Assembly (NCBI RefSeq): GCF_009914755.1
Contig: NC_060947.1
Strand: one strand, 5' to 3'
DNA: 64,000 nucleotides
From: the human T2T-CHM13v2.0 reference genome, Homo sapiens
Below the pieces are notes generated by a model. That model made no database searches and was not told the DNA's origin. It saw only the letters and a program-made list of their open reading frames with translations. Every line of letters starts with the position of its first letter. Within the stretch, counting starts at the first letter, position 1. Position numbers and translations under genes: made by a program. Shown piece after piece: positions 39,492-42,599 of this stretch.

Positions 39492-39802
39492 TGGTGGCTC
39501 ATGCCTCTAATCTCAGCAGTTTGAGAGGCCGAGGTGGGAGGATCATTTGAGTCTAGGAGTTTGAGACCAGCCTGGGCAACATAGGGAGACCTTGTCTCTA
39601 CAACAGAAAAAAAAGAAAGAAAGACAGAAAGAAAAAAAGCTAGCCAGCTGTAATGGCATGTGTCTGTAGTCCCAGCTACTCTGGAGGCTGAGGTGGGGGT
39701 ATGACTTGAGCCCAGGAGTTTGAGGCTGCAGAGAGCTGTGACTGTACAATACCACTGTGCTTCAGCCTAGGCAACAGAGCAAAACTCTGTCTCAAAAAAA
39801 AA
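39492..39802 (+). mobile_element. AluJ
   Basis: CCTGGGCAACATAGGGAGACC and GAGCCCAGGAGTTTGAGGCTGCAG; TSD AATAATGCT. Confidence 0.9.
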
Positions 39803-40186: not shown

Positions 40187-40487
<301 letters not shown>

Positions 40488-40829
40488 CCTCCACCCATTT
40501 TATACAGGGCTGTTTTTCTTTTTGTGTTTGAGTTGAGAGATTTCTTTATGTATTCTCATAGTAGAGTCTTATGAGACTTAGAATTTGCAAACATTTTCTC
40601 CCTCTATATGGGTCGTATTTTCACTTTGTTGATAATATTTTTTGAGGCACAAATATTTTTACTTTTAATTAAGTCCAATTCATGTGTTTTTTCTTTTGTT
40701 GCTTCAGCATTGGGTATCACACTTGAGAAATTGTTGCCTAATCCACAATCATAATTATTTACATTTATGCTCCTTTTAAAGAATTTTTTAAAAACTTCTA
40801 TTATTTAAAAAATAATAATAGTAGTAAAA

Positions 40830-40870
40830 ACAGAGCAAGCTCTTATTCCCTGTCCCTGCTCCAAAAATCC
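40830..40870 (-). pseudogene. RNU2: U2 snRNA internal fragment (nt ~97-137: Sm site and stem-loop III)
   Basis: Minus strand GGATTTTTGGAGCAGGGACAGGGAATAAGAGCTTGCTCTGT versus U2 GGATTTTTGGAGCAGGGAGATGGAATAGGAGCTTGCTCCGT, 37/41 identical. Confidence 0.88.
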
Positions 40871-40872
40871 CC

Positions 40873-40978
40873 AAAATACAGAATGTTTCACAAATTATCG
40901 TGTCATCCTTGCTCAAGGGCCATGCTAATCTTCTCTGCATCGTTCCAATTTTAATATATGTGCTCCCGAAGTGAGCAC
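40873..40978 (-). pseudogene. RNU6: Full-length U6 snRNA retrocopy
   Basis: GTGCTCACTTCGGGAGCACATAT...GATTAGCATGGCCC...GTATTTT; 13 mismatches in 106 nt versus U6; ACAGAGA box changed to GCAGAGA; no upstream U6 promoter (flank is L1). Confidence 0.97.
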
Positions 40979-41612
40979 TCTTTTAAATAATTTTCTGGTT
41001 GTAGATCCCACATTTAGTTCTTTGATCCATTTTGAGTTAATTTTTCTATATAGTATGAGATAGGGGCCAAATGCATTCTTCACATGTGGATATTCAGTTG
41101 TTCCAGAACCATTGGTTGAAAAGACTTTTTCCCTATTGAATGATTGTGGCATCCTTATAAAAATCAGCTTTCCATTGATGTATGGGCTGATTTCTGGACC
41201 CTTGTTCTGTTCTACCACTGTATATTTCTATGCTTATGGCAGGACTATAAGGTTGTGATTACTGTAGTTTTGTAGAGGTGTTGTGTTGTAAGTTTTGAAA
41301 TCAGAAACTGTGAGTTCTTCTACTTCGTTCTTTTCCCAGACTTTTTTTTTTTTTTTTCGGACATTCAGGGTCCATTGCAATTCCACATGAATTTTAGGAT
41401 CAGTTAGTTCATTTCTGCCAAAAACAGCATCTTGTATTTTTATACACCTTGCATTTCAACTGTAGATCAATGAGGACTATTGCTATCCTAACAATGTTAA
41501 GTATTGTTGTTCATGAAACTGGTATGGTTTTCCACTTATATAGGTCTCCTTTAATTGCTTTAGATAGTATTTGTTAGTTTTCAAAGTACTAGTCTTGCAC
41601 TTTCATGGTTAA

Positions 41613-42033
<421 letters not shown>

Positions 42034-42271
42034 AAACCATTGCCTTATCCAAGGTCACGATGATTTACGTCTATATTTCCTTTTAAGATTTCTAGAGTTT
42101 TAAGTCTTATAGTTAGATATTGAATCCTCTTTATGTTAATTTTTGATTATGGTATGAGGTAGGGGACAAAATTCTCCTTTTGCTTTTGAATACCACAGCC
42201 ATTTGTTGAAAAGACTTTTTTTTTCCTCATTCAGTGGTTATGACACCCTCATCAAAAGTCAATTGACCATA

Positions 42272-42599
<328 letters not shown>

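What the first reader, a model, noticed from the sequence alone, without database searches (positions are those of the whole stretch)
40772..40994. Retrotransposed U6-U2 snRNA chimera inside one pair of TSDs
Seen (minus strand): full-length U6 (40978-40873) ending in exactly TTTT, then GG, then U2 nt ~97-137 (Sm site AUUUUUG plus stem-loop III, 37/41 identical), then ~42 nt of unrelated AT-rich sequence. The whole unit lies between 16 bp direct repeats (CCTTTTAAAGAATTTT 40772-40787; TCTTTTAAATAATTTT 40979-40994) in an old L1. Both parts are similarly diverged (~12% and ~10%), which fits one co-insertion. Known: U6 ends in a 2',3'-cyclic phosphate and can be ligated by RTCB to 5'-OH RNAs before L1-mediated retrotransposition. 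The described partners I recall are mainly L1, Alu and mRNA. The U2 start falls in the stable Sm-site fragment region (RNU2-1f/miR-1246). Inference: this is a germline fossil of U6 covalently joined to a cleaved U2 fragment, possibly favoured by U2/U6 proximity in the spliceosome and pointing to an snRNA turnover/ligation route.
Basis: partly seen in the sequence, partly recalled or inferred. Interest (0 to 1): 0.85.

Follow-up and report, generated by a model that had tools for sequence, protein, structure and literature searches.

The report
Fossil U6–U2 fragment chimeric retrocopy
An ancient LINE-1-made DNA copy on human chrX joins a whole U6 snRNA to a 41-base piece of U2 snRNA and a short unidentified AT-rich tail, an unusual example of a known kind of chimeric pseudogene with no sign of function.

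Summary
On the minus strand the unit reads:
- full-length U6 (Rfam 99.7 bits) ending in TTTT
- GG
- 41 nt matching human U2 nt 97-137 at 37/41 (0 of 2000 shuffles reach the score)
- a 42-nt AT-rich tail that matches nothing
- 16-nt direct repeats (14/16) around the whole unit

The host is a very old L1 ORF2. In 9 of 24 L1 paralogues both flank alignments reach the junction. In all 9 the flanks overlap by 15-21 nt, so the repeats are a true target-site duplication around one 191-bp block. No other direct repeat brackets a sub-part.

My reading is one L1-mediated insertion, roughly 45-115 Myr old, of a three-part template. The U2 piece is exactly the Sm site plus all of stem-loop III, which suggests a discrete decay fragment.

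How the parts were joined is open. The two extra G at the U6/U2 joint and the third segment favour end-to-end template jumping by ORF2p with non-templated addition. The spliceosome-proximity argument is weak.

Anchor-pattern scans of the T2T genome found no second U6-to-U2 junction.

It is a new member of a known class, of moderate to low interest.

The parts
40979..40994 (-). 5' copy of the target-site duplication (minus strand AAAATTATTTAAAAGA)
   Evidence: 14/16 identical to the 3' copy. L1 paralogues carry this stretch once.
40873..40978 (-). Full-length U6 snRNA retrocopy (annotated RNU6-1130P) ending in four T
   Evidence: RF00026, 99.7 bits, E 5.4e-26, model 1-105/105; 13/106 differences from canonical U6, 3 of them CpG transitions.
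40871..40872 (-). GG filler between U6 and U2, belonging to neither RNA
   Evidence: all 17 U2 copies that held the motif (of 19 loci examined) read ATGG before the Sm site; none of the 19 U6 copies has TTTTGG.
40830..40870 (-). U2 snRNA nt 97-137: the Sm site plus the whole of stem-loop III
   Evidence: 37/41 identity, 0 of 2000 shuffles reach the score; genome hits are U2 copies only; 8 unpaired nt, then an 8-bp hairpin, then 2 nt, the same fold as genuine U2 97-137.
40788..40829 (-). 42-nt AT-rich tail of unknown origin that can form a 12-bp hairpin with one mismatch; ends in AA next to the TSD
   Evidence: no genome match; no similarity to U2 138-188; hairpin; 46 of 5000 dinucleotide shuffles form a stem as long.
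40772..40787 (-). 3' copy of the target-site duplication (minus strand AAAATTCTTTAAAAGG)
40995..41400 (-). Upstream part of the host element, a very old L1 ORF2 (C-terminal third)
   Evidence: 1917 first-look candidates; the 39 other scored matches are 67-77% identical; an open stretch matches human L1 ORF2p structures 8c8j, 8uw3 and 9k6g, E 0.005-0.01, near ORF2p residues 946-978.
40570..40771 (-). Downstream continuation of the same old L1 ORF2
   Evidence: it aligns to the same paralogues directly after, and overlapping by 15-21 nt, the point where the upstream flank ends.

Best explanation
This is a dead, single-event, LINE-1-mediated chimeric retrocopy made of three RNA segments in one orientation:
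- a complete U6 snRNA
- a 41-nt U2 fragment, nt 97-137, which is the Sm site plus the whole of stem-loop III
- a 42-nt AU-rich segment of unknown source

**What is shown.** The L1 endonuclease nicked an old L1 ORF2 at a TTTT/C site. The whole 191-bp block lies between one 16-bp target-site duplication. It is old, about 45-115 Myr from 17/147 substitutions, depending on the rate assumed.

**What is inferred.**
1. Reverse transcription was primed on the A-run at the end of the AU-rich RNA.
2. On reaching that RNA's 5' end, ORF2p jumped to the 3' end of a discrete U2 decay fragment and copied it to its 5' end at G97.
3. ORF2p added two non-templated C, which read GG in the sense strand.
4. It jumped to the 3' U-tract of U6, copied U6 to its 5' end, and the cDNA was joined to the target.

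I put about 0.8 on one event carrying a genuine U2 fragment. I put about 0.5 on template jumping as the way the parts were joined. There is no evidence of any function.
For: **Identity of the parts**
- U6.
- U2 nt 97-137: 37/41 identity and 0 of 2000 shuffles; the genome search returns only U2 copies.

**One block within one TSD**
- 9 of 24 L1 paralogues had both flank alignments reaching the junction. In all 9 the two flanks overlap by 15-21 nt (15 four times, 16 twice, then 19, 20, 21), so the target is present once in uninterrupted copies.
- The TSD pair is the only direct-repeat family in 40730-41040.
- Divergence is equal in the U6 and U2 parts.

**Orientation and endonuclease site**
- The TSD starts AAAA on the insert-sense strand, so the bottom strand reads TTTT at the nick.

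**A discrete fragment**
- The U2 piece begins 3 nt before the Sm heptamer and ends 2 nt after the hairpin.

**Joining by jumping**
- GG fits neither RNA.
- Purified ORF2p shows non-templated addition beyond the template's 5' end and template jumping that yields concatenated copies (passages of PMC10830420).
- Tripartite chimeras within one TSD are described in mouse and in a fungus (PMC2104539).
Against: - No orthologous empty site could be examined, because no primate genomes are held. The single-event claim therefore rests on paralogues and on the absence of internal repeats.
- There is no clear poly(A) tail: only AA, or A6 if the first four A of the TSD are counted.
- The third segment is unidentified, so 'three RNAs' is an inference.
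- The nick site reads TTTT/C today rather than the consensus TTTT/A.
- U6 ending in exactly four T is the form that Moldovan et al. found in true ligation products.
- A later GG-to-GGGG slippage could have hidden a precise joint.
- The boundary of the U2 piece is uncertain by 2-3 nt, because the next two bases could be C-to-T changes.
Confidence: 0.5

Rival explanations
1. The chimeric RNA existed before reverse transcription. RtcB (RTCB) ligated the 2',3'-cyclic phosphate end of U6 to the 5'-OH of a cleaved U2 fragment. The fragment, if cut out by a cyclizing RNase, would carry its own 3' cyclic phosphate and could be ligated on to a third 5'-OH RNA. L1 then retrotransposed the concatenated RNA in trans.
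For: - The U6 is full length and ends in exactly four T, the form seen in bona fide RtcB products (PMC6789731 passages).
- RtcB joins U6 to non-L1 RNAs such as GFP RNA.
- Both ends of the U2 piece follow a pyrimidine: U96|G97 and U137|C138. This would suit RNase A/T2-type cuts that leave a 5'-OH and a cyclic phosphate. That is my inference, and it is not statistically meaningful.
- The piece looks like a discrete Sm-site/hairpin fragment.
Against: - Two G that belong to neither RNA sit at the joint. Moldovan et al. treated such untemplated nucleotides as reverse-transcriptase artefacts.
- Two separate ligations are needed.
- The product lacks an evident poly(A) tail for ORF2p to bind.
- No RNA-level data can be examined here.
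Confidence: 0.3
2. Two sequential insertions at one spot. A U6 retrocopy arrived first with this TSD. The U2 piece plus tail was then inserted later between the U6 T-tract and the 3' TSD copy, or the two arrived in the opposite order.
For: - The joint between the U6 T-tract and the 3' TSD would have read TTTT/AAAA on the bottom strand. That is an ideal L1 endonuclease site at exactly this position (read).
- The divergence data cannot separate two events that were close in time.
Against: - A second target-primed insertion there should leave its own duplication, an extra copy of the start of the TSD, between U6 and U2. None is present, and the only direct-repeat family is the outer TSD pair.
- It needs either an exact-boundary hit without a TSD or a hit exactly at the 5' end of a pre-existing fragment.
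- Neither part has a poly(A) tail of its own.
Confidence: 0.08
3. Retrocopy of a read-through or host transcript from a source locus where a U6 gene or copy already lay upstream of a U2 fragment and the AT-rich stretch (a 3' transduction).
For: Four T is a weak Pol III terminator (general knowledge, recalled). The insert starts exactly at U6 nt 1.
Against: - No other locus in the T2T genome has the U6 anchor followed by the U2 Sm-site anchor. The exact scan gave 1 hit, this locus, with controls at 0. With up to 3 mismatches there were 109 hits against 30 in the controls; among the 100 listed, only this locus shows a U6 tail followed by U2.
- The 84-nt piece has no contiguous match elsewhere.
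- The unit contains further T5-T6 runs that would stop Pol III.
Confidence: 0.03
4. The 41-mer is not derived from U2; it is a chance or low-complexity resemblance.
For: The Rfam U2 model scores only 14.7 bits (gathering score 46), E 0.32.
Against: - 37/41 identity with a score of 33, against a shuffle maximum of 17 (0 of 2000).
- In a 3.1-Gb search, all 16 other hits are U2 copies at E about 1e-6.
- The hairpin is kept.
Confidence: 0.01

Closest known systems
U6/LINE-1 chimeric pseudogenes (Buzdin 2002/2003, recalled; Garcia-Perez 2007, recalled; Doucet 2015, PMC4476161; Moldovan 2019, PMC6789731)
   Same: - Full-length sense U6 at the 5' end, ending in a short T-tract.
- A second RNA follows in the same orientation.
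- The whole unit is flanked by a 16-bp TSD at a T-rich nick site.
   Different: - The partner is not L1 but a doubly truncated U2 fragment followed by an unidentified AU-rich piece.
- Two extra G sit at the joint.
- There is no evident poly(A) tail.
Bipartite chimeric retrogenes of cellular RNAs fused directly to each other (criteria listed in the Background of PMC2104539)
   Same: - The 5' part is a full-length cellular RNA.
- The next part is 5'-truncated.
- Orientation is the same throughout.
- Short flanking direct repeats are present.
- Small nuclear RNAs are named among known components.
   Different: - The second part is also 3'-truncated.
- The parts are not joined directly (GG filler).
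- I could not find a U6-U2 combination named in any text I could read.
Tripartite chimeric retroelements: mouse B2-U6-L1 and fungal WEIRD-MgSINE-MGL (PMC2104539)
   Same: Three unrelated segments in one orientation within one TSD, explained there by two template switches in one reverse transcription.
   Different: - The 3' segment here is not a LINE and is unidentified.
- That paper says the two human tripartite cases known in 2007 had no recognisable direct repeats, whereas this one has a clear TSD.
U2 processed pseudogenes (Doucet 2015, PMC4476161)
   Same: An L1-dependent DNA copy of U2 sequence without a poly(A) tail. That census reports poly(A)-ended forms as 0% for U2.
   Different: - Only nt 97-137 are present, cut at both ends.
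- The piece is embedded behind U6.
- That census kept only U2 and U6 copies at least 97.5% identical, so it would not have seen this 88% copy.
Stable U2 Sm-site fragments (miR-1246 / RNU2-1f literature; abstract of PMC10073804)
   Same: The 5' end of the piece (G97) lies within 1-3 nt of the 5' ends of abundant U2-derived small RNAs. The mapping of miR-1246 onto U2 nt 94 onward is recalled, not tested.
   Different: Those fragments are about 17-22 nt, whereas this piece runs 41 nt through the whole of stem-loop III. No end chemistry is known.

Membership tests
LINE-1-mediated chimeric retrocopy (chimeric retrogene criteria of PMC2104539 Background) | The 5' part is a full-length copy of a cellular RNA | tested here: met
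   U6 covers model positions 1-105 of 105, 99.7 bits.
LINE-1-mediated chimeric retrocopy (chimeric retrogene criteria of PMC2104539 Background) | The 3' part is a 5'-truncated copy of another RNA in the same orientation, joined directly | tested here: inconclusive
   U2 starts at nt 97 in the same orientation. However, a GG filler separates the parts, and U2 is also cut at nt 137 and followed by an unrelated 42 nt.
LINE-1-mediated chimeric retrocopy (chimeric retrogene criteria of PMC2104539 Background) | The whole unit is flanked by short direct repeats (target-site duplication) | tested here: met
   A 16-nt pair, 14/16 identical, is the only direct-repeat family in the region. The target is single-copy in L1 paralogues: 9 of 24 were informative, and all 9 overlap by 15-21 nt.
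LINE-1-mediated chimeric retrocopy (chimeric retrogene criteria of PMC2104539 Background) | L1 endonuclease-type nick site (TTTT/A on the primed strand) | tested here: inconclusive
   The present-day sequence gives TTTT/C. The base beyond the nick differs between the 5' flank and the paralogues, so its ancestral state is unclear.
LINE-1-mediated chimeric retrocopy (chimeric retrogene criteria of PMC2104539 Background) | 3' poly(A) or A-rich tail | tested here: not met
   Only AA before the TSD, or A6 if the TSD's own four A are counted. Tail loss with age cannot be excluded.
LINE-1-mediated chimeric retrocopy (chimeric retrogene criteria of PMC2104539 Background) | Empty orthologous site in outgroup species | not testable with these tools
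   No primate or other mammalian genomes are held (one search states that the genome has no relatives here). Paralogous empty sites were used instead.
U6 snRNA (Rfam RF00026) | Score above the family gathering threshold over the full model | tested here: met
   99.7 bits against a threshold of 44.
U2 snRNA (Rfam RF00004) | Score above the family gathering threshold | tested here: not met
   14.7 bits against a threshold of 46, E 0.32. It is a 41-nt fragment, not a U2 gene. Derivation from U2 rests on 37/41 identity and on genome hits to U2 copies only.
RtcB-ligated U6 chimeric RNA (Moldovan 2019) | U6 ending in about 4-5 U joined precisely to the first base of the partner | tested here: inconclusive
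   U6 ends in T4, but GG intervenes before U2 G97. Later slippage of GG to GGGG cannot be excluded.
RtcB-ligated U6 chimeric RNA (Moldovan 2019) | 2',3'-cyclic phosphate and 5'-OH ends, and RtcB dependence of the chimeric RNA | not testable with these tools
   This needs RNA-level experiments or end-specific sequencing data.
Tripartite chimeric retroelement (double template switch) | Three segments from three different RNAs within one TSD | tested here: inconclusive
   Two segments are identified, U6 and U2. The third has no match, so it is not shown to be a separate RNA.

The most novel reading that the evidence does not exclude
The locus is a genomic fossil of a real snRNA-snRNA ligation product. 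In germline or early embryonic nuclei, the cyclic-phosphate end of U6 was ligated by RTCB to a discrete Sm-site/stem-loop III decay fragment of U2. Because that fragment would carry a 5'-OH and its own cyclic phosphate, it could act as a bridge to a further RNA. This would reveal a ligation branch of snRNA turnover that occasionally reaches the L1 machinery.
Probability: 0.25. Interest if true: 0.55.

Novelty: new member of a known kind. Interest (0 to 1): 0.35.

Why it matters
U6-headed chimeric retrocopies are the main natural record of how L1 reverse transcription, or prior RNA ligation, joins unrelated RNAs.

This copy differs from the usual ones in three ways:
- Its partner is another spliceosomal snRNA, cut at the edges of a structural domain.
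- It has three parts.
- It has a clean TSD. According to PMC2104539, the human tripartite cases known in 2007 lacked one.

It therefore bears on two things. It is one more data point on the open question of template jumping against RtcB ligation. It also hints that a 41-nt U2 Sm-site/stem-loop III fragment existed as a discrete RNA.

It remains a single, old, non-functional locus. Anchor scans found no second case in the genome. Its value is as an example and as a reason to census the 3' flanks of old U6 copies, which published surveys excluded (at least 97.5% identity in PMC4476161) or did not target (LINE-1-adjacent only in PMC11838501).

Tried and rejected
1. **Extension of the U2 match into the tail.** A transition-tolerant alignment of the tail against U2 138-188 scored 14, against a shuffle mean of 13.7. 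1055 of 2000 shuffles scored as well. Rejected.

2. **Tail as L1 or another repeat.**
   - No genome match at E up to 10.
   - The best local scores against the 24 L1 paralogue loci were 14-17 of 42.
   - The genome tool skips very common words, so a very abundant repeat end is not fully excluded.

3. **Tail as an inverted copy of the target site.**
   - An exact 11-nt inverted match to the 5' TSD copy exists. 68 of 5000 dinucleotide shuffles do as well.
   - The matching base is the derived state of the 5' copy. The 3' copy and the paralogues have C there.
   - At the time of insertion the match would therefore have been interrupted. I regard it as chance.

4. **Other U6-to-U2 junctions in the genome.** I scanned with a U6 anchor, a gap and a U2 anchor.

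   | U2 anchor (nt) | Hits | Control | Outcome |
   |---|---|---|---|
   | 101-114, exact | 1 | 0 | This locus only |
   | 101-114, up to 3 mismatches | 109 (100 listed) | 30 | Only this locus has a U6 tail plus U2; 9 hits unlisted |
   | 15-28 | 137 (100 listed) | 19 | None of the listed has a U6 tail, judged by eye; 37 unlisted |
   | 71-84 | 0 | 1 | None |
   | 155-168 | 1 | 1 | That locus has no Rfam U6 or U2 at E up to 1 |

   Sensitivity is limited. Both anchors must survive with at most 3 mismatches.

5. **Whole-unit search.** The 39 other scored matches, of 793 candidates, cover only the U6 part.

6. **Pfam on the translated L1 flanks.** This failed because the frames hold stops. I used an open stretch against PDB sequences instead.

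7. **Papers.** Buzdin 2003 (PMC169886) and Garcia-Perez 2007 (PMC1855177) are not held. The notes of earlier sessions were closed.

8. **Search for a printed U6-U2 retrocopy.** Searches found none. In one search, 182 papers held at least 3 of the 4 terms, and none of the 15 listed contains 'U6-U2'.
Full report
**What is there**

Read on the minus strand, the region has six consecutive parts.

| Part | Coordinates | Content |
|---|---|---|
| 5' target-site copy | 40994-40979 | AAAATTATTTAAAAGA |
| U6 | 40978-40873 | complete U6, ending in four T |
| Filler | 40872-40871 | GG |
| U2 piece | 40870-40830 | 41 nt of U2 |
| Tail | 40829-40788 | 42 nt, AT-rich |
| 3' target-site copy | 40787-40772 | AAAATTCTTTAAAAGG |

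Evidence for each identification:
- **U6.** Rfam places U6 at 40978-40872 with 99.7 bits, E 5.4e-26, over model positions 1-105 of 105. It differs at 13 of 106 positions (12.3%) from the canonical human U6, and three of those are CpG transitions. The canonical form is the sequence shared by 8 of 19 fetched U6 copies.
- **U2 reference.** I did not rely on memory. I located the RNU2 array in the window's own genome with the Rfam U2 model and read one copy (L001 1501-1688).
- **U2 piece.** The 41-mer equals U2 nt 97-137 at 37 of 41 positions. Its local score is 33, and no shuffle out of 2000 exceeded 17.
- **Genome check.** A search with the 84 nt that follow U6 found 17 candidates, and all were scored. 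The 16 other than the locus itself are U2 genes or pseudogenes. They match only the first 41-42 nt at 90% identity, E 4.5e-7 to 5.5e-6.
- **Rfam U2 score.** The model alone gives just 14.7 bits, E 0.32. That is expected for a fragment.

**The host and the target-site duplication**

The flanks belong to a very old L1.
- The 422 nt upstream have 1917 first-look candidates in the genome. The 39 other scored matches are 67-77% identical.
- An open stretch of the upstream flank matches human L1 ORF2p structures near residues 946-978, E 0.005-0.01.

No outgroup genomes are held, so I used paralogous L1 copies as stand-ins for the empty site.
- I aligned the upstream flank (ending with the 5' repeat) and the downstream flank (starting with the 3' repeat) separately to 24 paralogues.
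- In 9 of 24 both alignments reached the junction. In the other 15, one or both alignments stopped short, so they say nothing either way.
- In all 9 the two flanks overlap in the paralogue by 15-21 nt: 15 four times, 16 twice, then 19, 20 and 21.
- Uninterrupted copies therefore hold the target once, and the 191 bp between the repeats are an insertion.
- The repeat pair is the only direct-repeat family found in 40730-41040.
- The duplication starts with AAAA on the insert-sense strand. The primed strand thus ended in TTTT, an L1-endonuclease-like site that reads TTTT/C today.

**One event or two**

Three observations favour a single event.
- Nothing brackets U6 alone or the U2 piece plus tail alone.
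- A second target-primed insertion between the U6 T-tract and the 3' repeat would be expected to leave an extra copy of the start of that repeat after U6. None is present.
- The divergence of the U6 and U2 parts is indistinguishable: 13/106 against 4/41, Fisher p 0.78, at low power.

One caveat applies. The original joint of the U6 T-tract with the repeat would itself have been a perfect TTTT/AAAA nick site, so a second hit there is not absurd. I give it 0.08.

A source locus with U6 already upstream of this U2 piece is not present in the genome. I give that 0.03.

Pooling 17 changes in 147 nt gives about 45-115 Myr, depending on the rate assumed.

**Anatomy of the U2 piece and the tail**

- The U2 piece folds as 8 unpaired nucleotides that carry the Sm site, then an 8-bp hairpin, then 2 nt. 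Genuine U2 97-137 folds the same way.
- Its two ends therefore sit at the edges of a structural unit. This suggests a discrete trimmed fragment rather than two random breakpoints. That is an inference, and I cannot attach a probability to it.
- The GG before it belongs to neither RNA. All 17 U2 copies that held the motif (of 19 loci examined) read ATGG there. None of the 19 U6 copies ends TTTTGG.
- The tail shows no similarity to U2 138-188: 1055 of 2000 shuffles do as well. It has no other genome match.
- The tail can form a 12-bp hairpin with one mismatch. 46 of 5000 dinucleotide shuffles give a stem as long, and the fold has a z-score of -2.4.
- It also holds an exact 11-nt inverted match to the 5' repeat; 68 of 5000 shuffles do as well. 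The matching base is the derived state of that repeat, so I regard this as chance.
- The origin of the tail is unexplained.

**Mechanism**

Both published routes to U6 chimeras could build this unit.

*For RNA ligation:*
- U6 is full length and ends in four T, the form seen in true RtcB products.
- RtcB joins U6 to non-L1 RNA (PMC6789731, passages).
- A fragment cut out by a cyclizing RNase would carry a 5'-OH and a cyclic phosphate, and could bridge to a third RNA. That is my inference.

*For template jumping:*
- Two nucleotides that fit neither RNA sit at the joint. Moldovan et al. treated such untemplated nucleotides as a reverse-transcriptase signature.
- Purified ORF2p adds non-templated bases beyond the 5' end of a template. 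It also jumps to a new template and makes concatenated copies (PMC10830420, passages).
- Three-part units within one duplication have been explained by double jumps (PMC2104539).

*The sequence of events I propose:*
1. Priming on the A-run of the AU-rich RNA.
2. A jump to the 3' end of the U2 fragment.
3. Copying of the fragment to G97.
4. Addition of CC.
5. A jump to the U6 3' end.

Every joint in this series is end-to-end. I put about 0.5 on this and 0.3 on ligation. A later GG-to-GGGG slippage would erase the distinction.

From textbook knowledge (recalled), the U6 3' region pairs with the U2 5' end, not with the Sm site.

**Comparison with what is known**

- The unit meets the published criteria for chimeric retrogenes on three points: a full-length 5' RNA, shared orientation and flanking repeats (PMC2104539 Background).
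- It departs from them in having a filler, a doubly truncated middle part and no clear poly(A) tail.
- That text names small nuclear RNAs among known components. I found no U6-U2 case in any text I could read.
- The most relevant table, in Buzdin 2003, is not held.
- The 2015 U6 census kept only copies at least 97.5% identical, so it excluded this one.
- The 2025 census looked only at sequences 5' of LINE-1.
- Anchor-pattern scans of the T2T genome found no second U6-to-U2 junction. Sensitivity is limited, and some hits went unlisted: 9 and 37.

**Verdict**

This is a real and well-delimited fossil of one L1-mediated insertion that joins U6, a U2 Sm-site/stem-loop III fragment and an unidentified AU-rich piece. 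It is a new member of a known class, with no sign of function.

The proposed ligation route and spliceosomal rationale are not shown, and the extra GG counts somewhat against them. Interest is moderate to low, 0.35. The ligation reading, if later shown at the RNA level, would deserve more.

Noticed in passing
window 40788-40829 (minus strand): The unidentified tail is a near-perfect hairpin: a 12-bp stem with one mismatch and an 8-nt loop. 46 of 5000 dinucleotide shuffles match it, and the fold z-score is -2.4. It also contains an 11-nt exact inverted copy of part of the 5' TSD, which I judged to be chance because it matches a derived base.
   Followed up: partly
window 40873-40876 / 40784-40787: Without the U2 piece and the tail, the U6 T-tract next to the 3' TSD copy would read TTTT/AAAA on the bottom strand. 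That is an ideal L1 endonuclease site exactly where the extra material lies, which is relevant to the sequential-insertion rival.
   Followed up: partly
L016 and L017 (G000:C14:26399672-26400896): Two U6 copies with the canonical sequence lie about 1.1 kb apart in opposite orientation. Each has only four T, followed by a GC-rich flank. They are probably genuine U6 genes rather than retrocopies.
   Followed up: no
L010-L028 (3' flanks printed): In several of the best-matching U6 copies the T-tract is followed directly by what looks by eye like L1 ORF2 sequence, the typical U6/L1 chimera. L012 and L013 on C15 are identical, flanks included, and look like a segmental duplication. Neither point was tested.
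   Followed up: no
window 39643-39795, 40204-40486, 41662-42035, 42273-42388: Weak Metazoa_SRP hits (27-57 bits, below the gathering score) and mir-1268, mir-3135 and mir-1285 hits on both strands. This is the usual signature of Alu elements inserted around and into the same old L1.
   Followed up: no
G000:C2:36874524-36874590 (L046): A U6 copy whose T-tract runs on into a long T/C-rich stretch, picked up by the mismatch-tolerant pattern scan. It has no U2 part.
   Followed up: no
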